The translations under genes were made by a program, and so were the position numbers. From Aplysia californica (lineage: Eukaryota), in contig NW_004797278.1 of the NCBI RefSeq assembly GCF_000002075.1, positions 2,032,009-2,096,008 on the forward strand: DNA of 64,000 nt, read 5' to 3'. Below the pieces are notes generated by a model. The model had not been told where the DNA came from and did no database searches. It saw only the letters and a list, made by a program, of their open reading frames with translations. Shown piece after piece: positions 30,501 through 59,701 of the stretch. Each line of letters starts with the position of its first letter. Positions within the stretch are counted from its first letter, which is position 1.

Positions 30501-33500
30501 GGTAACCAATTACCCAACACTATTGCAGGTCACTGCAGAGCAGCATTCTTTGACCCTGGGGTAGTATATCATGCACACAAAATAAAACAACAATGACCTC
30601 TCTTAATAATATAGTCAGTGCTCAAAACTGATTGGGGTTTTTTTATGGTCGCAGCATAAACTTTCTACAAATCACTACTCTGCATTCTTAAATATACTTC
30701 AATTCTCTCTTACTACTTCATATTTTAGGAAATAACAAGGAGTCTCTCGAACTGCCCTGTCATAAAAGACAACAAACTAAGTTGATTTAATAGCATGTAT
30801 TAATAAAAAGACAGCAATGCCTAGCTGTGAACTGAAAAACATAAATACTAACTCTCCTGCAAATTTACAATATCAGAAAGAGCTGTTAACATTAGCAATT
30901 TAGTGTTATAGGAGCCTCTCAGAGAAAGCCAGGCCTCCTAAACTTATTACACAATTGCTCAAAAGAGATGTTGTCAACACCAACAAAAAGCAGGGCGTAC
31001 ACAGTCTCAAGAATACAAGAAACAAAGCAGGATGATGACATTTAAAAACTTACTTCCAAAGTACTGAGAAAACCACGCAAACACATTTCTACTAAAAAGA
31101 ATGTAAAACTCACCAGCATTAAAATTAAAAACTCACTTCTCGAATATTGACAAGATCAATCTTGACCTCTCTCAGAGCTTCTATTCCATTCAAGGGGCCT
31201 TCAAGCTTTGCAACTTTTGTATGGAGAAAAGAAAGCAAAATGAAAATGGCAGTGATATCATTTAAACATTTTTCTCTCTAAATTTTGCTTCTCTCAATCA
31301 TAAAAGACCATCATCAAGAAACGAGGATGATATCCAAATTGGCACAACATCAAATTGTGAAGTGTATAGAGCCTACTTTCAAGTAAAGATAAGTTCTATA
31401 AAAATGCAATCTAAACTCATTATCAATTATTATCATAATGGTACTGCAGAAAGAAGTTTGTTGCACAAAACTTAGCAGCTAGAAGAATAAAAAAAAGTCC
31501 TAAAGTATCAACAGTAAAAGAGCACTTGAACATAGTATCCCAATCTCTGAATAGAAATTCAAACCTATTTGTTCTCCTACAAATATATTCAAAACTAGTA
31601 TCAAAAGCAAATTCTGAAACCGAAATAGAAAAAAAAAACCCACTTGTAAATGTGATAAAAGCTCACCTGCTTGCACAATGGTATCAGTAGCATGCAGGTA
31701 GTGTTTGTTTGCAATTAAAGTGTTCATCTTGTCTTGAACTTCTTTGATTTGCTCACTGTAACAAAAAAGAGGTTTATTACATTCATTTGAGGGGAGCTAT
31801 ATTCCATCTTAAGTCTTAATGACAAAGTATAAAAGATCACACAATCCACTTGCTAGTTATTATGAACATCAGAAAGTGATACAGTGAATGATTATATTTC
31901 CAAATGTGACACGAGAGGTATACCTCAACATTGAACTATATATCATAACTTTATGCAAATAAGAATATCAAGTTCAAAGCAATCAGCACAATAAACTTCT
32001 TGACTGTTCAAACATTATTCTGAAACTTTGTAAACGACTCATCTTTTCCCTTTCAGTAAGTGTGCATTACACTATGAAATAATTTACACCATAATAATTT
32101 ACACCTTTCACCATTAGCCATAAAAGACAAATAGTTAAGATTATTTCTTCACTATTAAAACATCATTATTTCATCTTTGAGTTCACTTTCAGGCAGCTAA
32201 CATTACATCTTTAATGTTAAAACACCCTTGCGAACACCTCAAATTGAAAACAACAAACCATTCAAAGAATGAAAGACTAAATCTACAAAACACAACTTAG
32301 AGCACAAATAAACTTACACTTGTTCCAGCATAGACAACACAGCTTTATGCTCCACTCCATCTTTCCACAGTTTACGCAGTTCATCACGCTTGAAGTGCAA
32401 AAGTGTCTTGCAGGAATTCAAGTCTTCCTTAATCTTTCTAATCTTGTCCCTTGATTCTGTTGTGAGTATCAATACCAAAAACATCTATCAGAAGCAGTAA
32501 CACTAACTAATTCAAAAATACATGTACATGGTGTTCATAAATCAAAGGTACTAAATCTGTACAAGATATAAAAAGAACACTGCTTGCTGTGTATGAATTT
32601 GCAAAATTGAGCAGTGTTTCTTCCCTTATTAGACTTTGGCAATGCTCTACTTGGTCATTTCAAACATATCACTCCTTGTGTTGGAGCAAGTGATGATTTT
32701 TTGATGTGACACATAGCATTGTTATCATTTTTTTTATACTTCATATTGAAATTCTTTTTTGAAAGTAACATACAACTTAAATTCTACGTAAATTTACATG
32801 TGTCTTTACCATTTGTGTGGAGCCATACAAAATTTCCCCCGGGGGCAAAAAAGTAGTTTTACCTCTTAAAACTACACCTAACATTTTGAAAATATTTTTC
32901 TGTTCAATATAATTATATCTATGTACACATTTTACTTAATCTATGTATACTGAACAATTACAAATTTCAACAGATAATGAAATCAAAATGCAAAAAACCT
33001 CACAACAACACTGTTGACCATATGAGGTTTCTAGGAGACTTTCTCTTTTAAGGTTGTTGTTGTTGTTGTTAGCGATCCAGTAGCATCTGAGCATTACCTC
33101 TTCTGCATGATGCCATTCGGTAATAGCTGCATGTCTGTTCAAATTGTTGTCTTGAGGATTAGAGGCAATTAGATGTGTGGGGTAGCTTGGGAAGAAAACA
33201 TCCCCTTAAATCAGTTAGTTTTCTACACAAGAACAGATGATGTTCCACTGTCTCTCAGGGGTAGTCACATAGTGGGCAGGCAGCAGACTGCTTTACTCCA
33301 ATTCGGTTGAGAAGTTGGTTGAGGGGTACATGTTGTGTTCTAAGTTGGAAGATTATGGATGAATCTCCCCTCTTCAACTCATTGATAGGCTCTTTGAACA
33401 GTGGTTTATTCATGTGGCCATACATCATCCTTCCTGTCGTACCTGTGGCCCAATCATTTATCCAGTCTTCCTTGAGGTTTGACCCGATCATTTGGCAGCA

Positions 33501-36500
33501 GGTGGTGTAATCAGTGGGAATTTCAGGCTGAGGGAGGCTAGCTCCTTTCTTTGCTAGAGCATCAGCTCTTTCATTTCCCGGTTCTCTTTTAAGGTAAACA
33601 TATGGATTAATATATTCTTAAAAAACAACAACTTAAATGATTCACACATAATAAAACAGGGGTAACTTACCATTTATACTTTTCGTCATGCCATTAAAGG
33701 ACTGAAGAATCTTAGTCACATCTTGGTAGTTCTCTGTAGGTATAAAAAGTATATTTTAAAAAGACATGTATGATGTTTTATTTAGCAAATACTCAATGTT
33801 GCTGTTGCTTACATCTTACAGAGCTGTTTAGTTGTTCACTTCTTTTCAGCTAACACTTGCTAAGCTGATGAATGCTCATGTCTGCCATAGGATACTCTAG
33901 GTTGAATCTATTCACATCTTCAGACTTATTCAAGTTTAGTCCATAAACTGGAAGGTTAGACCTTGGTCCTTTCTATATATAGCTTACTATAAAAAGACTT
34001 TAAACTGCAATAAAAGCATAGCCGGTTCCCCAGGTTGTCCACCTGTTTAGCCATTATCAGATCCAACTTGGATAACAAAAAAAAGAAGAAAAAAAAAAGA
34101 AAAGAAAACAGAAAACTAACAAGTTGTACCACTATAGTGTGACCTCAGTGCTTTCTTGTCGTATCTCTGGGTTTTTTAACATTGAAAATGTGACTTCTTC
34201 TAAAGCTCATTCTTTGTTACGAACTGTTTTCACTGGTTCAAAAAATGGAGATGCGACAAGAAAGCACTGAGGTTGCGATAGCACAAATCAAAGCCATAAA
34301 TAAATCAGTCTATTGTGCATGAAATAGACTCAAGATTTTTATAATCTATTGATATTACTCCTGAACAGTAGACGTCTAGTTGAGTTCTCTCTTTGTAACT
34401 TATTTGACCTACTCTACACTATACACATGCAGGGTCTCTACTCTCTGTGGAGCTAACATGGGGGTAGCCATGATGTCATGCACAAAAGACAATGTGGAGT
34501 CTGCTTTAAACCAAAATCAGCGGGACAGTCAGATTTTCTTCAGTTTAGCCCCGTTTTCCATTTACAGAGATTGCTCAGATACGGAGGAAAAAAATCATGG
34601 ATTTTATTTTCTTTAGATGCACCATTGTTTTCCGATTAACCATCTTCAGTTTAAGCGGACTCCACTGCATTAAAGAAGGGAGACCACAGTCTGACCTTTA
34701 CCTTCTTGCACTCCAACACACATGTATTGGTAACCAGTCCAAAGATCTTCTGTACAGCTACACAAGTAAAAGAAGTTTGGTGCAAAACGCTTACCTGCAA
34801 CTAATTCACCAAGAAGCTTGTCACTATTGATGTACGCTTTTTCAATTCTCGTCTTTTCCTTTTCTCTTTGTTCAAAATCAGCACTGAAAAGTAAATAAAT
34901 ACAATACATTGTATTCTTCTATAAGAACATAAAACCATGCTCTTTTAGATGTTAACAATGGCACTGAACCATGCAAACTTAAAACAGGGTGGCTCTCGTG
35001 GCCTAGAGGTTAAGGTGTTTGCCTCTCATTCAAAGGTCCCAGGTTTGAATCCGGACAGCGACCGAAATATTTTCTTCTCTAAAATGCCTCCATTCACCTT
35101 CTTTCCTGCTCTCTAGCAATGTTCTGTCATCTGCTTTCGTCTCCACTTTCTGCCCCTACCCCCTTTGCCCCCTCCTCTGGGCTTCTGACTCTTTCGGCAG
35201 CCTTTCTACTGCTACTTCTTGGCTCCTTCTTACCGCTGTCTTTCAGCCACATCCTTGATCTTCTGGTAGGAAAGATCTACACCTAGCCCTCTTGGACAAG
35301 GGCGAAAAATCTCTGAGGTCCCGAGTGCAAGTTGCGCACGTTAAAGATCCCTTGGTGGTCTAAAATCAATAAGAATAGGCTTCGGACGATAGGCTGCTGA
35401 TAATAATCTTCTAACTGGAACACATCCCCCCCCCCCCCCCCGAACCACACATACACAAGTTACATAATTCATGACTATACAATAAAAAAAATAAGAGAGT
35501 GATTTTAAAATTCCTTAAAAGTAAAGCAAAAAGCTTATTATATAAATAAAAACTTATCAGGAGTTTAAAATTGAAACAATAAAAATAATCATTATTTTCC
35601 TCAGAAGTTTTATAATATTTTTCAAGTTATCTGTAAAGAAATTCGTGTGTTTATCTTACCTTGATGAAAGCGTGGTAATTATTGACATCAAATACGCTGA
35701 CTGGAAAAAGAGAAAAGAATACAAAAAAATTACAATTTCAGTTCACGACAACGATGTATGACATAGAATTTAAAACTTTCACACGGGATGAGAGAATTTA
35801 GCACTATTGGACCTTATTCCCATTATAAAGGTGCTGAAGAAATGGAGAAAGAGTTTTTCGAGACAGTATGCCCTTTCTCTGACGTCTGTTAAAAGAAAGT
35901 GAAAGCAAGCCTCAGCCAACTGGCTAAATATGTGAGATTTGGCAAAGTGTAGGCCATCATAATAATATAAAAATACAGCTGAAACTGTCAAAGATGGCCA
36001 CCACCTGTCTAGGAGAAAAGTGGCTGTTGTAGACAGGTGGCCATCTTACACAGTGTCATTACAATGTAACAAAAACACAAGGGGGAATGGGAGCCTTTGG
36101 TATCTATAGAGGAGATTGTCTTTTGCTTTTACACAGCAGGTATACACTGAACAGCTCTTCCAGAGAAACAGCGTCAATTACTGCTGGGTCGAAGATGACC
36201 AAGATATCCAAGAGCTTACAATTGTTGCAACTATGGGTCTTCCCTAGTATAGGCCTACAGAAGACAGAGACTTCTATGTAGTTACTGGAGACACTGTAGT
36301 AGTTGTGTAGGCACTGTGACAAAGTCTATATAAGCTTACTACCTTTTAGTCTAGACTTAGAAGAGCTCCGGATTAGCCAGCTTGATCTGGTAGCAGTGAA
36401 CAAACCATACTTATGGCATGGACTAATAATGACATGACTACTGGGTAGCCTAATCTTCCAGATCTGGATGTTTTAGTTTCATGCTCATCATCATCAGTAG

Positions 36501-50700: not shown

Positions 50701-51521
50701 TCCCTAGTTCAAATGCTACTTGTTCATGCCAGTGTGCCTTGTGAATTATGCAACACCAAATTACAGGGTTCTCTAACTCGTTACTGGTCACTTTCATAAC
50801 CAAAGTAAAGATTCATTTTTTTTCACTTTCAGAGGGATATCCTTCATGCAAGTTGATGTTATTCTTTGTGAAAAAATCCTGGTTTGCTGCACCGCACCAG
50901 GAAACAGATGTGACATCCACTCTGAACCCCCCCCCCCCCCCCCCCTCATCTTTTCCTGTCCAACCTATTTGAAAGAACATTAAAATGCAAATACACCCTT
51001 CCACATTCCCACCAGCACCATCAAAAAATAAAAATGTTTACCCTCCTATGGGTTCGGACCTTGACCTTCAACATTTCATAGAGTTCATAGTCAACATTAT
51101 TTCAGTAATCAGCACAACAAGATGAAAACACTTACAAATTCATAAAATATAGGGGTGATTTGCCACCCACATGTAGTAGCTTACAATGTTCCACAACCTA
51201 TTTGGGCTGGAAATTTCTTTCCTTTAATTAACAGAATATTTTAAGACTTGCATGTGAAAGTTTTCTTCTAAATATCAACAAAACACATGACAACAAAATT
51301 CATATAATAAGGTAAAGAGATATTTGGCACGTAAAAATAAAGGAGCACATATATGTGAGGCAGGGTGGTGAAATCAGGCCCTCGTCAAAATAATCAAAGT
51401 GAAGAAACTGGCATTTTTCTGCAGGTTTGGGAATTTTTATCGAATTTTTGTTTTTTGGCTCAACTCTCTTCATGCCCATTAAAGTACATATTTCTGTATG
51501 GATTTTACTGAAAAACATTGC

Positions 51522-51794
51522 TTAAAGGCACAAAAAATGTTAATTTTCAGTCTCCACTGACTCTCAGGCTAAGGAACTAACTATCTTAGAGGGCCATTTT
51601 CTCACTCATTTTATCTCTGAAACCAGGTGACCCCCACCTCCTGCATTTGCAAACATATCGAATTCTATTCAAGAAAATGGGATATTTTTAAAATTCAAAG
51701 CAAGACAAAAGAACAAGCTTTAAGATGATACCAATAACTCTGCATGCCTAAAAATTGACGTGAGCCTGATTACACCGCGTCGTGACACATATTT
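51522..51794 (+). repeat. Dispersed repeat, Kolobok-like TTAA-AGG end, copy 1
   Basis: Colinear with 56803-57069. Confidence 0.7.
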
Positions 51795-51988
51795 ACATAA
51801 ATACATTCTTTACATTATGTACACTCAGGCACCATATTATGCAACACATGCATTAAAATATAAAGGGCAAATCAAGTAGGGCCTACTCTCTTGATATTTT
51901 GACCACTCTATGAGAACAGAACTTTAAAACATGAATGAACATCATGTTTCTAAACTGAGCATGGTTTGTTTCCTGTTTCCTGAAAATG

Positions 51989-54900
51989 TCACTGGAGATT
52001 GCAAATTCGAGTGGTGCTCTTTTTGCTCGATGATGATGCTGAGCTCTCAGCTCTTGGGGTGCAAAAGTCAGAAGATGCTGAATCGTCAGCTTGAGAAAAA
52101 TTCCTGCTAGTCCTCGGGGTTCTAGGTGTTGCTCCACTTCCCGTACTTTGCTGTTCCGACATAAGCTGCAACTGTTGTTGCAATTCCCCAACAACACGCT
52201 GACGATCGCTTAGCAAACAATTCTGAGTTTCAATCTCTAGCCTAAGTCTTTCTACTTCAGAGATAAGAGATTGCTCTCTTTCACTGGCCAGTTTTTCAAC
52301 CTCTTGCTTTAACAGAGCCTGCTGATTATCTTTCTCCTTTTCTAACATCCGTACGCGTGCGTCGGCTAATTTCTTTTCCTGTTTGATCCTCTCCAGTTCA
52401 AATAGTAGAGACTCCTCTCTTCTTTTTACAGTCACATCAGAAATGAAACCTCTCCCAACAGGATTTTCTTTAGGCATCACCAGTCCACGACCTCTACCTT
52501 TGGCTGACGATCTTTGTTTTCCCTGAGCCTTTGATGGTTGAGATTTTGTGCTCATGTAACCAGTCAGTACATTCTTTAATGTCTCTCCTTCACTCTTCAT
52601 AGGCTTAACCCTCTGATCTTTGGAGATATCCCCAGAACTGCTATCTGAGCAAAGTTCAGGTTGCAGAGCATCTGGGTTGCTTTCAGAACTGTTTACAGAG
52701 GATGCACGGAAACGACTCTGAGTTATAAAGTTCTGATTACGTGGACTACACTTATCACCACTGATAAATGTCTGAGAGGTGAGATGGGGAGGATAGTTGA
52801 CATCAGCTACTGGTGTCAAGGCTCTATTTATTTGTATGCTGGACATAGATGAATCAATACCATCTGCTCTTCTTTGTTCGTCAGATTCACCACTTGTATC
52901 ATCTGCCTCATTGCCATCATTCACCTCTATTGCACTTTGGGCCAGCTCTTCTCTCAGCCATGTGGGTATTGCACTGTGAGTATCAATCTCTGAAGTTTCT
53001 GAGGAGCAAGAGTTGTCGTCAGTTTTCTTCTCCTTATGAGAAGAAATGTCATTGTGAAAATGCCTTGGAGAAGTAACACCCAGAGAGTGGCTCGACTTTC
53101 GTCGCATAATACGTTTCTTGAAGGTTCTCCTCCGCGGGGGAGGGGCAGTTGTTTCAATATGAATAAATAGATTTTCCCCATGGCAAAATATATTACCAAG
53201 GAGCATCTTTTCAGGGCCTTGCTTTAGCAGTATCAAATGTTTAGGAACCGCTATCACAACACTGTCATCTCTAATAAATTCTCTGTCTTTATCTTTAGAG
53301 TTTTCCTGACTGCTTGCACTCAGTGAACGTTGGGGAACACTGCTGAGTGGTCTGAATCCCTGACTATCGACATCATTAAATACTGATGGGGGACTGTTTT
53401 CCACCGTCTCTTTACCTGATGAGTCAAAAATCCTATTCTTTATCAGATCTTTGTCAGAAGCTGGCATCCCATTTGAATTTGACACGTGGGAACAGGCACC
53501 TTCTATATGCAGTTCCTCCTTGTTGTTAGGGTGTTGAATGCAAGTAATGCTGTCATTTGTACTTGACTGGCTGGTAGTATCTTCATAGTGCAACATCGGA
53601 GATGATGTGTACCGCAAACCCCAGTAGTACAACTCATGGTCTTTTGTGCCAGCAACAGTGAAATGATCTCCGCACTGGACACGGTTTACACACTTTTCCT
53701 CCAAAGCCTTCACTTCAACTGGATTACTTGCTGGTTTAACATTTTGAGTGCCCAGTTGACCCTCCAAGTTACGTCCAAATGTTATGACATGTCCCGGTTC
53801 AACAATAACTGCTGTATGATTACGCCCCATGGATACTGCAAGCACACGATGACGAGCCAGGGCTCGAACAGGAGTGGGAACATTTTTTCCATCCACTTCA
53901 GTCTTTGTAAAGATATTTTTCATGGCCATTAGGAAACCCTGCCGATTATTCAAACCAAGTTTATTATGCTCATTATTTCCACAAGCAAACACCCCACCAA
54001 CATCTGATATGAGCATAGTTCCATCAACTCCACATTCCACATCATTGAATACAACACTCTCTTCTCCAATTTGAACAGTGGTAGGGACACACTGGCTTTC
54101 CTCTGAGCCTAGGCCCAACTGTCCATGAGATCCGTTCCCCCATGACATCACTTCTCCATCACGTCCAAGGACAACAACATGTTTCAAACCACAGGCTATG
54201 GCAACCACATCAACACTGAGAAGACTTTCAATCAGTCTGGGTCGAGCAGAATTACACCAGTCACCATGACCTAAACACCCAGAACTCCCATCACCACAAG
54301 TTAGAACCAATCCATTATCACTGCCAAAGATGCTGAACCCAAGCCCACAGCTCACCAAAGATACAGACTTTCCCTTCAATGCTTCTACCAGGGTGGGTGT
54401 GTATCTGTCTCTTGTATCTCCATGACCCAATTGTCCAGACCCTCCAAAACCCCAAGTAAAAACTTGTCTTTCTGTTGTAGTCACAATCACATGATCAGGA
54501 CCCACACTCATGTGTTTGATTTTCATACGTGGAGGCAAATTGTAAATGCAAGTTAATGTGGCAGTTGAGCACTCTAAATAATAGAGTACTGATCTGATTT
54601 TTGTTTTTTTACCAAGACTTTCTGATGATGTTGTATCATCTTCTTGATCTGACTTGGCTTTGTCAAATTTATTCATGAGAGATGGAAGACGTTGGTACAT
54701 GATTGTGTTTGCTTCTGGACGGTCCTCCGGGCTCCTCCTTAACATATCTGTCACTATTTCCTTAAACTCTTCACTGTAATTCCCTTTGACAGGCGCAAAC
54801 TGTCCTTTCATGATCTTATTTACTAATGCTGGCAAATTTGATCCTTCAAAAGTCTTTTGAAAACAAGCCATCTCATACAAAATACAACCCAAAGCCCAGA

Positions 54901-56350
54901 TGTCAGACTTAAAGCTGTACAGTTTCCCTTCACACATTTCAGGACTTATGTAATATGGTGTACCTAAAACAGTCTCTGCTCCTTTATTAGCAGATCCCAT
55001 CATTTTGGAAATCCCAAAATCACCAATTTTAACGACCCCTTCTTTGGTCAAGAAAATATTGTCTGTCTTCAAATCTCTGTGTAAAATATTATGAGAGTGA
55101 ATATGCCTTATGGCAGCAACAATCTGCTGAAACATTAGCAAAATCTCTCTTTCCTCAAGAGGACGATCTTGCTTTGACAAAAACTGGGCAAGTGTTCCAT
55201 TGTCTGCATATTCCATTTCTATCATTAGAACACCATCTTCTTCAAAGCTGTCATAATAACTAATAATGTTAGGATGGTCTAACATTGCTAAAACACTGAC
55301 CTCATTCAGAGCTAATTGGCGTTCATTGACATTGAGATCATGCATGTTGATCTCCTTGAGGATAACAAGAGACTCATCATCCTTCTTTTTGTACAGCACT
55401 GCAGCTCCATATGCACCTTTTCCAACAATTCTGATCTTTTCAAAACCAGCCAAACTTTGTTGATGTCTGCCACTCCAGTTTCTCAACTTTTCCAAACGAA
55501 AATACAGTTCTCCCATGTACGGTTTACTCGCACTTTCATCACTTTTCCTCTGTGGGGAACTATAGCCAGTCAAATCTCTCCAAACACCAACTGTCACTCC
55601 TGTCAAAAGTTGTAGTTCAGAAACAACAGGTGGAAGAGAATCACTGTTCTGTAAACCATGCCATCCAAAGAAATCTATTCTGGACTTTGAGTCCTCTGGA
55701 AGAAAATAGTTTTTCACTAATCGAGAGAAAAAGTCCTGTACACCCTTTTCAAGATTTCCATCTTTACTTAAAATCTTGTCCTCTTTGATAACCAGCTGAA
55801 GAGATGAACCTGAGCAGCTAAGAATAAACGCTGTACCTTGCACTTTTTTGCCATTGAGAACTTGAGCAATCTGAACTTCAAGATCGTCAAGATTTTGAGT
55901 GTCACAATTATACTGTATCAAAATAACCCCAGGGAGTAATGAATGTCTGATTGAAGAAATATTCCTTACTTTGCTTGATACAATAACAAGTCTGAAGCAA
56001 GGCACATCTGCAGCTTTACCACTACGTCCTCCATGAACATCTTCATAATTTTGAGATGAATCTCTGTGAAAAATTTCTCCATCTTCCATCTTAATGACTT
56101 TTTCAGCTGCACCAGGCTGATAAGATAGTGACCTATGGAACTGTTCAAGTGGTGACTGAGGTGATAACGATTGGGAGTGTGAGCGTCTATGGCTTTTACT
56201 GTCGACATTTTGAGGGGGTTTGCTGGAATTATGGCACTCGCTCTGAATATTTTGAAGAGATTTGCTGACATGTTTTGGTGATACCAAGGGAGTATTCGTG
56301 TCAGAAGAGGGATCCTTTTCTTGAGCTGTTGCACTGATTTCTGAGCTCAT
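51989..56350 (-). CDS. NEK8/NEK9-like NIMA-related Ser/Thr kinase with RCC1 repeats, 1453 aa, CDS in a single exon
   Basis: Kinase motifs GKGAYG, VILKEI, HRDLKTDN, DFG, GTPYYISPE, SDIWALG from aa 303; RCC1 repeats (VFTWGFGGSGQLGHG, SWGNGSHGQLGLG, TFGRNLEGQLG); C-terminal coiled coil; ends CNLQ*. Confidence 0.95.
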   Translation of the reverse strand: MSSEISATAQEKDPSSDTNTPLVSPKHVSKSLQNIQSECHNSSKPPQNVDSKSHRRSHSQSLSPQSPLEQFHRSLSYQPGAAEKVIKMEDGEIFHRDSSQNYEDVHGGRSGKAADVPCFRLVIVSSKVRNISSIRHSLLPGVILIQYNCDTQNLDDLEVQIAQVLNGKKVQGTAFILSCSGSSLQLVIKEDKILSKDGNLEKGVQDFFSRLVKNYFLPEDSKSRIDFFGWHGLQNSDSLPPVVSELQLLTGVTVGVWRDLTGYSSPQRKSDESASKPYMGELYFRLEKLRNWSGRHQQSLAGFEKIRIVGKGAYGAAVLYKKKDDESLVILKEINMHDLNVNERQLALNEVSVLAMLDHPNIISYYDSFEEDGVLMIEMEYADNGTLAQFLSKQDRPLEEREILLMFQQIVAAIRHIHSHNILHRDLKTDNIFLTKEGVVKIGDFGISKMMGSANKGAETVLGTPYYISPEMCEGKLYSFKSDIWALGCILYEMACFQKTFEGSNLPALVNKIMKGQFAPVKGNYSEEFKEIVTDMLRRSPEDRPEANTIMYQRLPSLMNKFDKAKSDQEDDTTSSESLGKKTKIRSVLYYLECSTATLTCIYNLPPRMKIKHMSVGPDHVIVTTTERQVFTWGFGGSGQLGHGDTRDRYTPTLVEALKGKSVSLVSCGLGFSIFGSDNGLVLTCGDGSSGCLGHGDWCNSARPRLIESLLSVDVVAIACGLKHVVVLGRDGEVMSWGNGSHGQLGLGSEESQCVPTTVQIGEESVVFNDVECGVDGTMLISDVGGVFACGNNEHNKLGLNNRQGFLMAMKNIFTKTEVDGKNVPTPVRALARHRVLAVSMGRNHTAVIVEPGHVITFGRNLEGQLGTQNVKPASNPVEVKALEEKCVNRVQCGDHFTVAGTKDHELYYWGLRYTSSPMLHYEDTTSQSSTNDSITCIQHPNNKEELHIEGACSHVSNSNGMPASDKDLIKNRIFDSSGKETVENSPPSVFNDVDSQGFRPLSSVPQRSLSASSQENSKDKDREFIRDDSVVIAVPKHLILLKQGPEKMLLGNIFCHGENLFIHIETTAPPPRRRTFKKRIMRRKSSHSLGVTSPRHFHNDISSHKEKKTDDNSCSSETSEIDTHSAIPTWLREELAQSAIEVNDGNEADDTSGESDEQRRADGIDSSMSSIQINRALTPVADVNYPPHLTSQTFISGDKCSPRNQNFITQSRFRASSVNSSESNPDALQPELCSDSSSGDISKDQRVKPMKSEGETLKNVLTGYMSTKSQPSKAQGKQRSSAKGRGRGLVMPKENPVGRGFISDVTVKRREESLLFELERIKQEKKLADARVRMLEKEKDNQQALLKQEVEKLASEREQSLISEVERLRLEIETQNCLLSDRQRVVGELQQQLQLMSEQQSTGSGATPRTPRTSRNFSQADDSASSDFCTPRAESSASSSSKKSTTRICNLQ

Positions 56351-56448
56351 TCTTTCTTTTTACTAAAAAAGTTTATTTCTATTTTCCAGCCGCAAGGGTT
56401 TACGGCAAGACTTGTAATTTGCTCTATCCTCAAGAATCCGGTCCAAAC
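56351..56448 (-). other. 5'UTR part of the NEK-like coding exon; acceptor AG at 56450-56449
   Basis: tctatttcacag|GTTTGG 98 nt upstream of the ATG; candidate upstream donor CG|gtaagt at 58138/58137. Confidence 0.6.
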
Positions 56449-56802
56449 CTGTGAAATAGAGAAAAGATCTAATTATGTTTATCTGAAGTATAGAAAGTAA
56501 TCCGTTATTAATATATATGCTAAAAAAGTCCAAGCAAAATCTGGATGCAGGATTGACTCTACCTCATGTAGGCTACTTTGCTTCTGACTTTCTTCAAAAT
56601 AGAGTTGTAATAAACAAAGATAGCCCCCACCCCCCCTCCCATTTAATTTGCCTGTGCATGGGCATCATGAAAATATTAACTGAAAATAGCGAGCAACAAG
56701 TTTGGACACTTCTTACCAAGGTCAGAGCTTTTTTGGTTTATTAACACGTTGTATGCTCATTCAAAAACATTCTCATGTGTGGATGTTATGGAAAAACATA
56801 GT

Positions 56803-57069
56803 TTAAAAGCACAACAGATGTAAATTTTCAGTTTCCACAGACTCTCAAGCTAAGGATATAACTAATCTGAGTAATCTTTGGCAGCCATTTTCTCACCTCC
56901 GAAATAAAGTAAAACCCACCTCCTTCCTTCAAAAATATCTCGACTTGTATTTAAGATAAATGGACATTTTTTTCACCAAAAGCAAGACAAATAAACAATC
57001 TTTAAAATGATACCTCTACACGCTGAAAAATTGACGAGCGCCTGATTCCACTGCGTCCCGACACATATT
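56803..57069 (+). repeat. Dispersed repeat, copy 2
   Basis: Shared AATTTTCAGT...GACTCTCA.GCTAAGGA...AAAGCAAGACAAA...AAAAATTGACG...GACACATATT. Confidence 0.7.
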
Positions 57070-57142
57070 GACTATAAATTCTATGTGCACATTTATACCA
57101 TGTAACATAATTACATCGCTTTCATAAAATGATTCGCTGTGG

Positions 57143-57184
<42 letters not shown>

Positions 57185-57205
57185 TATATATATATATATA
57201 TATAT
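57143..57205. repeat. (TA)n microsatellite
   Basis: Direct. Confidence 0.95.
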
Positions 57206-58370
57206 CTTTAAGTCAGTTAGTATTAAATTACTTTGGAATATGGGGTAATAGTAAATTTAATGTCCCCCACTTAACTCAATATGCATATCGAGGGGCCACC
57301 TTTCGGCATACGTGACATTTTGGGTTGCTGTTATAAATCCCTCCCTTGTGAGTCGTCAAGGTTATTTCTTCAGACACTAGGCAAATTGTTTTTTATTCGA
57401 ACTTAGACTCAGCCCAATAGCGTAGTATTTTTCTGAGCTGCGCATCAATCTGGGGGGGNNNNNNNNNNNNNNNNNNNNNNNNNNNNNNNNNNNNNNNNNN
57501 NNNNNNNNNNNNNNNNNNNNNNNNNNNNNNNNNNNNNNNNNNNNNNNNNNNNNNNNNNNNNNNNNNNNNNNNNNNNNNNNNNNNNNNNNNNNNNNNNNNN
57601 NNNNNNNNNNNNNNNNNNNNNNNNNNNNNNNNNTGAACTNNNNNNNNNNNNNNNNNNNNNNNNNNNNNNNNNNNNNNNNNNNNNNNNNNNNNNNNNNNNN
57701 NNNNNNNNNNNNNNNNNNNNNNNNNNNNNNNNNNNNNNNNNNNNNNNNNNNNNNNNNNNNNNNNNNNNNNNNNNNNNNNNNNNNNNNNNNNNNGTCCCAG
57801 CCCGTGAGACATGTATTTACTTGGCAAAATGTCCTGTCTTGTTGTGCGTTTGCGTGAGTGCACCTTTAAGTCTAACCTTTGTAACGTCTACTGCCATTGT
57901 TAACGACCAAGACAAATTTCTCCCTGCGAGATGAATAAAGATTGTCATTGTCATTGTCATTGTCATATACATATGTGTAATCTGAGGGAGCTCTAGGCAG
58001 ACCCTCCAAAGCATCTGTGTGGAGGAGTGAAAGTAAAAATTTACTCATGGCTGCCCTTGTTCTTTATTAGTGAGACTAGGCTGCTAGGCCTATATGGAGA
58101 AGACGAGTTTTTGAGAAGGGATGCTCTCTTGACTTACCGAAAATGGTGCCGAATGACCCCACTTCAAATCAACAATGGGGTATTCTTAAATTTTGGGTGC
58201 AGAGTTTAAAAAGCTTTAACTTTTATGCAGACTTTTCAGAATGCATTCAATTTTTTTCATTGTGTGGGAATGCTCAGAGTAACAACGAGTTAGATGAATG
58301 CATCCTCCTGTAATAATATGAAATAGAAGTATCCCACTGAACAATAGCCTACTGAATACAGATGGAATTG

Positions 58371-58600
58371 CTAGATCTAGATCTAGATCTAGGCCTAGAT
58401 CGCGAAATCATCATGTGGAATTAATTTCTCCTCGATCTCCATCCACTGCAAGATCTAGTTCGGTCAGCCCACCGCTCGTCAACAGCCAACATGCACAGCG
58501 TGAACAGGCGGACACACACAGACCCTCTAAATGTGGAATGCATAAACTGCCAATGACACCTAATTCTAGATCTAAATCTAGATCTAGATCTAGATCTAAA
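58371..58600. repeat. (TAGATC)n palindromic hexamer tracts
   Basis: Tracts at 58371-58400 and 58566-58600; also 60762-60860. Confidence 0.85.
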
Positions 58601-59701
58601 TCTTATTTCAAAGAAATGTTCTTAGAATGGAAGATATAGAGGACAAAAAGGTGGCTAACCTTCACACTAAGGGATGGTTCCCCAAGCTACTTTCGACTCT
58701 TTCGTGCAGAATTTCTAACAACCATTATTATTGTTTACATCTAGCGTACTACGGTACCGGATGAGCATACGCCGAAACAGGTCCGAACTTGGAGCACAAT
58801 TTCAACGCGATTTTTCCGTTAGGCCAATTTCATAAATAAAAAATCAGCCAATTTGATCTTTTACACGAAAAGTAATTCCATATCGAGAGAGTATGTCAAT
58901 TAAAGAATACTACCGACAAAATCAAAACACACACAAAAAGTAGGCTATCCAGCGATGGTAATATTTATGCCCCTGCTCGTTATTTCTCTCTTTTTTTTCT
59001 TCAGCTTTTTATTTTGGCAACATTGTTAATTTTGTGCTTAGCCATTTTATGTTGATTTGCTGAAGTTTGTACTTTCTGTTTTCAAGAACAGAAGNNNNNN
59101 NNNNNNNNNNNNNNNNNNNNNNNNNNNNNNNNNNNNNNNNNNNNNNNNNNNNNNNNNNNNNNNNNNNNNNNNNNNNNNNNNNNNNNNNNNNNNNNNNNNN
59201 NNNNNNNNNNNNNNNNNNNNNNNNNNNNGTCTCTGGACACTCATATAGATCTATGCACCCCAGACCAATGATAAAATTATCTTGCACTAGGCCACGTACA
59301 TCGAGAGGGAGCAAATAGGTTATAAATACTAAATAGTACTNNNNNNNNNNNNNNNNNNNNNNNNNNNNNNNNNNNNNNNNNNNNNNNNNNNNNNNNNNNN
59401 NNNNNNNNNNNNNNNNNNNNNNNNNNNNNNNNNNNNNNNNNNNNNNNNNNNNNNNNNNNNNNNNNNNNNNNNNNNNNNNNTGGCGTTTTAACTATGTTCT
59501 CCTAGACGATCATTTTTTTTATCAAATGGGGCACATATATCAGCAATATTAATATTATATTCTATATGAATACATGTCAATTAAAATATTTCAAAATGAA
59601 GCTATATTTTGACTTAAACTGATTTAAATAAGTTATTTTAAAAAATGTCATAAGTAAAGCTTTCATTCGTGTTGGGGTCTGGCTTCAAGAGTGTGTTCAA
59701 G

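What the first reader, a model, noticed from the sequence alone, without database searches (positions are those of the whole stretch)
55475..55995. DUF4347-like (ECT2L/NSMF-type) domain fused N-terminal to a NEK kinase
Seen: aa ~120-291, RLVIVSSKV...LPGVILIQY...LNGKKVQGTAF...VQDFFSRL...RIDFF...SELQLLTG...LYFRLEKLRNWS, precedes the kinase. From memory this pattern parallels the DUF4347 region of ECT2L (RVVLISSRI...AGVVSVVY...LDGQKAQSIG...VRDFWEKL...VDFF...SQLSQLTG...YFCESKLQTWS). Known: vertebrate NEK8 starts at its kinase domain and NEK9 has only a short leader. Inference: a distinct invertebrate NEK subfamily with an extra globular regulatory module.
Basis: partly seen in the sequence, partly recalled or inferred. 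Interest (0 to 1): 0.7.

Follow-up and report, generated by a model that had tools for sequence, protein, structure and literature searches.

The report
NEK9-like kinase with dead protease head
This snail gene encodes a NEK8/9-type kinase that starts with an extra domain related to a bacterial domain predicted to be a cysteine protease; the snail copy lacks both predicted catalytic residues and likely works as a docking module, while corals, a sponge and a ray keep them, and the roundworm kinase NEKL-1 carries the same overlooked domain.

Summary
Observation confirmed. One uninterrupted 1,453-codon frame (51989-56350, minus) encodes leader, extra domain (aa 120-293), intact NEK kinase, RCC1 propeller, NEK9-type P-x-W-L motif, likely coiled coil and a CaaX end. 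The extra domain is DUF4347-like: Pfam misses the snail copy, but orthologs pass the cut-off, a mollusc-only profile finds human-type ECT2L (PDB 11xu, E 1e-4), profile-profile to bacterial DUF4347 gives 94.8%, and the AlphaFold model's best match is the DUF4347 protein Tce1 (Z 9.4), a putative His-Cys protease. The His/Cys sites read Ser178/Trp230 here; 14 of 82 family domains keep both. The subfamily is not invertebrate-only and not nameless: it runs from sponge to manta rays and contains C. elegans NEKL-1, reported as the NEK9 ortholog. The genome has a separate NEK8. Best reading: a membrane-anchored NEK9-like kinase with a pseudo-protease docking head. Its relation to vertebrate NEK9 was not tested by tree (no NEK9 sequence obtained). 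Several database entries already carry DUF4347 plus kinase automatically, and this scan noted the architecture before on another genome (e1-7708488). Ten paper searches found no description of it.

The parts
58660..58722 (-). 5' UTR exon (at least this long; its start was not mapped)
   Evidence: Loose ends of contigs in runs X5, X18, X20 at 56450 match 58662-58701; donor GT at 58659
56449..58659 (-). Single GT-AG intron, 2,211 nt, in the 5' UTR
51989..56350 (-). Whole coding sequence, 1,453 aa, no intron; in-frame stop just upstream of Met1
55994..56350 (-). Ser/Pro/His-rich leader aa 1-119, poorly conserved (19-32% to heterobranchs, aa 1-114), likely disordered
55472..55993 (-). DUF4347-like alpha/beta domain aa 120-293 (cysteine-protease-like fold, predicted inactive here)
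55817..55819 (-). Ser178, at the column of the DUF4347 His
55661..55663 (-). Trp230, at the column of the DUF4347 Cys
54695..55444 (-). NEK kinase domain aa 303-552; Gly loop, beta3 Lys, alphaC Glu, HRDLK, DFG, GTPYY all intact
53609..54532 (-). RCC1-like beta-propeller aa 607-914
52943..52966 (-). P-x-W-L-x-x-E-L motif aa 1129-1136, same spacing as the NEK7-binding residues of human NEK9 (P809, W811, L812, L816)
52151..52438 (-). Conserved charged helical stretch aa 1305-1400, likely coiled coil (judged by eye, no coiled-coil program run)
   Evidence: 55-74% identity in three heterobranchs, 29-50% in distant orthologs; inference
51992..52003 (-). C-terminal CaaX box (Cys-Asn-Leu-Gln) after basic residues; predicted farnesylation site

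Best explanation
The gene encodes an intact NEK kinase of the NEKL-1 (NEK9-like) clade whose N-terminal DUF4347 domain has a predicted cysteine-protease-like fold but lacks both His and Cys sites, so it likely acts as a non-catalytic docking module on a kinase that is likely membrane-anchored. Shown: architecture, homology to DUF4347/ECT2L, Ser/Trp at the dyad columns, intact kinase motifs, spliced transcripts, conservation of domain, motif and CaaX across animals. Inferred: the CaaX cysteine is farnesylated and with the basic residues holds the protein on a membrane (likely ciliary, by nekl-1 expression and ECT2L location); the C-terminal helix dimerises it; the P-x-W-L motif docks NEK6/7 as in NEK9, so the kinase would activate NEK6/7 at that membrane; the dead protease fold binds a partner or substrate and so sets where and when the kinase acts. 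Inferred history: the fusion predates the sponge-bilaterian split with a His-Cys pair, and catalytic sites were lost several times (His in molluscs, then Cys in heterobranch snails; Cys in most arthropods; both in most nematodes).
For: Domain homology: Lineus 30.2 and an unnamed ortholog 50.5 bits vs cut-off 24.6; hhalign 94.8%, E 5e-8, 149 columns; HG column on Ser178, GC column on Trp230; 7 of 7 bacterial domains keep His and Cys. Fold: pLDDT 85, pTM 0.84; best of 48,161 chains is Tce1, Z 9.4, rmsd 3.7, 147 aligned, next 6.7; Tce1 = PA0256, DUF4347-bearing (PMC8262886) and a putative His186/Cys240 protease (PMC13323088). Kept without the dyad: 54-61% identity among heterobranchs against 21-42% in low-complexity stretches. 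CaaX in 95 of 146 family proteins, 0 of 5 NEK8, Cys frequency 2%. Motif in 69 of 146, 0 of 5 NEK8, 7 of 14,600 shuffled tails. nekl-1 is called the NEK9 ortholog and is expressed in ciliated cells (PMC9879004 citing Casey 2016); ECT2L sits on transition-zone doublets (bioRxiv 2026.06.11.731632).
Against: No function of any DUF4347 domain is shown: Tce1 had no measured protease or toxic activity. Foldseek gave no match at E<=0.001 and the known protease domain of TcdA scored only Z 5.4, among generic Rossmann-like folds. The two-domain model has pTM 0.66 against 0.84 for the domain alone, so no fixed domain-kinase orientation is predicted. The docking motif pattern is absent from C. elegans NEKL-1 and most nematode, mite and dipteran members, its downstream F821/I822 positions are only half matched, and many members (dipterans, mites, some nematodes) show no domain, so neither part is essential to the clade. 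Three polyA runs gave next to no reads on the coding sequence. One review table pairs NEKL-1 and Niki with NEK8, not NEK9 (PMC4577287).
Confidence: 0.55

Rival explanations
1. The dead domain is an intramolecular regulator that packs on the kinase N-lobe and holds it off (or on) until released.
For: The distance from the domain's last Tyr-Phe to the kinase Gly loop is exactly 27 residues in sponge, corals, nemertean and molluscs (38 of 70 rows at 27, 5 at 26), and the linker is among the best-conserved parts.
Against: Linker is 23-36 residues in arthropods and nematodes; two-domain pTM 0.66; domain lost in several lineages that keep the kinase.
Confidence: 0.25
2. The domain is a live or ligand-gated protease in members with His and Cys (self-cleaving or cutting a partner), and in this snail only a relic kept for folding.
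For: 14 of 82 distinct domains keep His and Cys, 8 of them with His-Gly as in bacterial DUF4347, spread over sponge, corals, nemertean, ostracod, and (without the Gly) echinoderms, hemichordate and one ray.
Against: 68 of 82 lack one or both; one Mobula species has His, the other Tyr; the snail domain stays at 54-61% identity, more than a relic would need; no DUF4347 protease activity is shown.
Confidence: 0.15
3. The clade is a third RCC1-NEK paralog unrelated in function to NEK9; the motif match is convergent or ancestral to both.
For: No vertebrate NEK9 appeared among the 120 best kinase+RCC1 matches while NEK8 proteins did; rays keep a full-architecture gene.
Against: One search scored only 7,993 word-sharing candidates and listed 120 of 921; only two kinase+RCC1 genes (this and NEK8) were found in the genome; reviews pair Nekl-1 with Nek9.
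Confidence: 0.35

Closest known systems
C. elegans NEKL-1 and insect nimA-like kinase (Niki) clade
   Same: Same side of the tree against NEK8; the C. elegans protein P0150 (98%-type neighbour of CBR-NEKL-1 in the tree, branch 0.05) has the domain at aa 3-159 (E 1e-27 to the family profile) and a CaaX end.
   Different: Worm domain has Gln/Thr at the dyad columns and no P-x-W-L match; dipteran members have no domain; snail protein is about 470 aa longer. Fly Niki itself was not among the named sequences.
Human NEK9 (Nercc1)
   Same: Kinase + RCC1 + P-x-W-L-x-x-x-L motif + C-terminal helical stretch (PMC4632185).
   Different: NEK9 is described with an N-terminal kinase domain and no extra head (PMC12564199); that it lacks a CaaX box is recalled, not checked. 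Orthology not tested.
NEK8
   Same: Kinase + RCC1; 56% identity in the kinase to bivalve NEK8.
   Different: Five NEK8 proteins start 10 residues before the Gly loop, lack domain, motif and CaaX; separate multi-exon gene in this genome (G000:C228).
DUF4347 (PF14252): bacterial domains, P. aeruginosa Tce1/PA0256, ECT2L
   Same: Sequence profile and fold match.
   Different: Bacterial copies keep His-Gly and Gly-Cys; the snail has Ser and Trp; ECT2L couples the domain to a RhoGEF, here it is fused to a kinase.
NEK10
   Same: The one human NEK with a folded region ahead of the kinase (PMC12564199).
   Different: That region is ARM repeats; no RCC1 domain.

Membership tests
DUF4347 (PF14252) | Score over Pfam gathering cut-off (24.6 bits) | tested here: not met
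   Snail domain: no hit at E<=1. Orthologs pass: 30.2, 29.2, 50.5 bits; corals 20.9-23.1 just under.
DUF4347 (PF14252) | Profile-level homology over the whole domain | tested here: met
   hhalign 94.8%, 149 columns; ECT2L E 1.1e-4 from a mollusc-only profile
DUF4347 (PF14252) | Same fold as a solved DUF4347 domain | tested here: met
   Tce1 9qpe_G Z 9.4, rmsd 3.7, 147 residues; only chain at Z>=8
Toxin-type cysteine protease domains (TcdA/TcdB/RtxA CPD, His-Cys dyad) | Fold match to a proven protease | tested here: inconclusive
   TcdA 576-762 Z 5.4, tied with generic folds; the link runs through Tce1, whose top structural hit is reported as TcdB CPD
Toxin-type cysteine protease domains (TcdA/TcdB/RtxA CPD, His-Cys dyad) | Catalytic His and Cys | tested here: not met
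   Ser178 and Trp230; met in 14 of 82 family domains
Toxin-type cysteine protease domains (TcdA/TcdB/RtxA CPD, His-Cys dyad) | Proteolytic activity | not testable with these tools
   needs biochemistry
NEK8/9 subfamily | NEK-type kinase followed by RCC1 propeller | tested here: met
   (best PDB hit NEK1, E 3.5e-71)
NEK8 | Groups with NEK8 orthologs | tested here: not met
   NEK8 rows form their own side, SH-aLRT 100; a separate NEK8 gene exists in G000
NEKL-1/Niki clade | Groups with NEKL-1 and nimA-like kinases against NEK8 | tested here: met
   (quick tree, rooted on NEK8, no outside outgroup, fly Niki not included by name)
NEK9 | NEK6/7-binding motif P809/W811/L812/L816/F821/I822 | tested here: inconclusive
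   First four positions match, +12 is Ile, +13 is Glu; binding untested
NEK9 | Orthology by kinase/RCC1 phylogeny | not tested
   no NEK9 sequence was returned by any search
CaaX-prenylated proteins | Conserved Cys four from the end | tested here: met
   95 of 146 family proteins (isoforms and partial records included), 0 of 5 NEK8; the modification itself is untested

The most novel reading that the evidence does not exclude
The ancestral animal NEK9 was a farnesylated protease-kinase fusion: a bacterial-effector-type His-Cys protease domain sat on the kinase and switched it by cleavage. It is still active in sponges, corals, ribbon worms and some deuterostomes, survives as a pseudo-protease in molluscs and in C. 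elegans NEKL-1, is kept whole in sharks and rays, and was stripped from the NEK9 studied in mammals.
Probability: 0.17. Interest if true: 0.8.

Novelty: new variant of a known kind. Interest (0 to 1): 0.5.

Why it matters
NEK kinases are described as having the kinase at the N-terminus with rare exceptions (PMC2031824; NEK10 the human one). Here a whole animal clade, with a model-organism member (NEKL-1), carries an unrecognised protease-fold head and a lipid-anchor signal. That gives direct tests in C. elegans of a little-studied ciliated-cell kinase, a first handle on what eukaryotic DUF4347 domains (ECT2L) do, a natural series from intact to dead dyad, and a sharp question on where vertebrate NEK9 came from. 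It is tempered by the architecture already being auto-annotated in databases and by no function being shown.

Tried and rejected
Gene-model artefact: rejected, single stop-free frame, 23 of 23 profile hits share the architecture. Processed pseudogene: rejected, intact 1,453 codons, spliced UTR, no closer intron-bearing parent among 150 scored of 407 candidates. Pfam on the snail domain, phmmer on PDB and Foldseek: nothing significant. PF14252 search of the genome rang nowhere, controls included, so it says nothing. Broader profile A3 did not reach Tce1 by sequence, and its ECT2L hit is circular because an ECT2L-like row was in it. Complex prediction of domain with kinase gave no answer (score 0.01, alignments not used). 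Atlas search with kinase+RCC1 did not complete. Run search listed no holder on record as RNA. Four phmmer hits (P0047, P0049, P0052, P0055) were dropped as spurious: ankyrin/LRR/low-complexity, not matched by the family profile. Pfam on 147 of 275 short frames elsewhere in the window found nothing. 'NEK12' is used in the library only for trypanosome kinases and unrelated items. Caspases were not listed in the fold searches; that does not exclude kinship.

Full report
1. Observation. The finding lies in one stop-free frame on the minus strand, 51989-56359, with Met1 at 56350 and an in-frame stop just before it. The product has 1,453 aa. Pfam finds a kinase (aa 303-552, E 2e-63) and an RCC1-like domain (aa 607-914) but nothing on aa 115-302. 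Kinase catalytic motifs are intact and the best PDB sequence hit is NEK1. The nearest named relatives are heterobranch snails (Physella, Biomphalaria, Elysia). The domain is single-copy in the genome by a protein search (5 candidates scored).

2. Gene structure and expression. Contigs of runs X5, X18 and X20 (two studies; run kind guessed or unrecorded) stop at 56450 and go on with letters that match 58662-58701, which defines a GT-AG intron 58659-56449 in the 5' UTR. These runs therefore hold spliced transcripts. Contigs of X5, X18 and X6 cross the domain-kinase junction. Against: three polyA runs of 2026 (tissue unknown) had almost no reads on the coding sequence, so expression is low or restricted. 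The genome has a separate, multi-exon NEK8 on C228; no third kinase+RCC1 gene was seen, but only part of the candidates were scored (58 of 58).

3. What the domain is. A profile of 8 mollusc domains hit ECT2L in the PDB (11xu, aa 291-458, E 1.1e-4, next hit 0.13), and 3 of the 8 members touched DUF4347 weakly. phmmer over 1.84 billion proteins gave 39 hits, among them a bacterial DUF4347 protein (6.9e-6) and an ECT2L-like RhoGEF (2.1e-4); four were spurious and dropped. Orthologs pass Pfam's DUF4347 cut-off, and several database records carry PF14252 with kinase already (Macrobrachium, Dysidea, Saccoglossus, Lineus). A NEK-only profile scores those two outside proteins at 109.6 and 79.3 bits against at most 5.3 for 400 shuffles. 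The ESM Atlas ranked DUF4347 clusters first (0.82) and NSMF at 0.80, leads only. AlphaFold gives a confident alpha/beta domain (pLDDT 85, pTM 0.84). Foldseek found nothing at E<=0.001; VIA-align over 48,161 chains gave one chain at Z>=8, Tce1 of P. aeruginosa (Z 9.4, rmsd 3.7, 147 residues). Tce1 is PA0256, which holds DUF4347 (PMC8262886, passage) and is proposed as a cysteine protease with His186/Cys240 aligned to the TcdB protease dyad; no activity of Tce1 was shown, only yeast toxicity of Tce2 that needs its Cys (PMC13323088, passages). TcdA's protease region scored Z 5.4, not above generic folds.

4. Catalytic sites. Seven of ten plasmid DUF4347 matches were fetched; all seven have His-Gly/Ala and Gly-Cys. 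hhalign of 82 NEK-family domains against them gives 94.8%, E 5e-8, and places the His column on Ser178 and the Cys column on Trp230; the 52-residue spacing compares with 54 in Tce1. Among 82 distinct domains (isoforms and near-copies included) 38 have His, 31 have Cys and 14 have both: sponge, three corals or coral-like records, Lineus (2), sea urchin, sea star, hemichordate, Mobula hypostoma, an ostracod, one aphid relative and two unnamed records. Molluscs mostly have Ser at the His column; all ten heterobranch-type rows have Trp at the Cys column. The snail domain is thus a predicted pseudo-protease, yet it keeps 54-61% identity among heterobranchs and 30-43% to distant animals, against 21-42% and 9-40% in low-complexity stretches.

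5. The family. The architecture occurs in a sponge, corals, flatworm, nemerteans, molluscs, arthropods, nematodes, echinoderms, a hemichordate and rays. The C. elegans member has the domain at aa 3-159. A quick tree of 57 chosen rows of the 209 proteins in hand (607 columns, LG+G4, SH-aLRT only, rooted on NEK8, no outside outgroup) puts five NEK8 proteins on one side (100) and the window protein with NEKL-1, nimA-like insect kinases, sponge, Trichoplax and cartilaginous fish on the other. Dipteran, mite and some nematode records lack the domain; some others look 5'-truncated. Two more features mark the clade. A CaaX end is in 95 of 146 proteins over 600 aa (partial records and isoforms included) and 0 of 5 NEK8; that Gln or Met at the end favours farnesyl transfer is established knowledge, not tested. 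A P-x-W-L-x-x-E-L motif is in 69 of 146, 0 of 5 NEK8 and 7 of 14,600 shuffled tails; its spacing equals P809, W811, L812, L816 of human NEK9, each needed for NEK7 binding, with the coiled coil needed for activation (PMC4632185, passages; its supplement was searched but the alignment figure is not held as text, and may show which invertebrate homologs the authors used). No NEK9 sequence came back from any search, so orthology is open.

6. Mechanism. Most likely (0.55): an active, lipid-anchored, dimeric NEK9-like kinase that docks NEK6/7, with the dead protease fold as a partner-binding head. Ciliary context is indirect: nekl-1 is expressed in ciliated cells (PMC9879004, passage citing Casey 2016) and ECT2L binds transition-zone doublets (bioRxiv 2026.06.11.731632, passages; that paper does not mention the DUF). 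Rival 1 (0.25): intramolecular control of the kinase, favoured by a 27-residue spacing kept from sponge to snail, not favoured by pTM 0.66 for the two-domain model. Rival 2 (0.15): live protease in dyad-intact members, relic here.

7. Literature. Ten searches found no paper describing DUF4347, a protease fold or CaaX on a NEK; DUF4347 appears in 5 papers, listed, three read as passages. The library lacks most subscription journals. Reviews read as passages: PMC5716973 (Niki in the Nek8/9 group, Nekl-1 homologous to Nek9), PMC4577287 (NEKL-1 and Niki tabled with NEK8), PMC2031824 (NEK kinase domains N-terminal with rare exceptions), PMC11974183, PMC10166553, PMC12564199. No whole paper was read. 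This scan reported the same architecture earlier on another genome (e1-7708488, seen after my own analysis; one search found nothing by sequence); it is not independent support.

8. Verdict. Real, ancient and undescribed in the papers searched, but a variant of the known NEK8/9 group and partly auto-annotated. Interest 0.5; new variant of a known kind.

Noticed in passing
window 51989-56350 (-); G000:C228:191206-216228: The 4.4-kb coding sequence has no intron, whereas the NEK8 paralog shows eight exon-sized matches over 25 kb and bivalve/ray ortholog records differ by exon-sized gaps; fits retroposition or wholesale intron loss in this lineage, with one 5' UTR intron.
   Followed up: partly
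window 55814-55816 (-), Cys179: Molluscs have an invariant Cys right after the His column (Ser-Cys where others have His-Gly); bivalves thus have two Cys near the old active site, perhaps a redox or metal site.
   Followed up: no
window 58672-58686: Run X18's contig lacks 15 nt of the UTR exon present in X5, X20 and the genome; likely an allele.
   Followed up: partly
window 51193-51885 and 56737-57198: Two copies of one high-copy repeat flank the coding exon (3' side and inside the UTR intron) and draw almost all reads of the polyA runs.
   Followed up: no
P0025, P0026, P0063, P0064, P0189, P0192 (Lineus longissimus, one contig): Several gene records of this family on one contig, some without RCC1: a local expansion with His-Gly and Cys intact.
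   Followed up: no
P0079 vs P0034/P0081: Two Mobula species differ at the His column (His vs Tyr), suggesting relaxed constraint on catalysis in rays.
   Followed up: no
G000, rows on C546, C244, C33, C16, C815, C174, C231, C127 and others: Many clusters of intron-poor kinase genes (open frames 230-400 aa) in tandem: a lineage expansion not examined.
   Followed up: no
window 33255-33617 (-): Frame resembling the RNase H end of a non-LTR retrotransposon by eye; no Pfam hit at E<=5e-4.
   Followed up: partly
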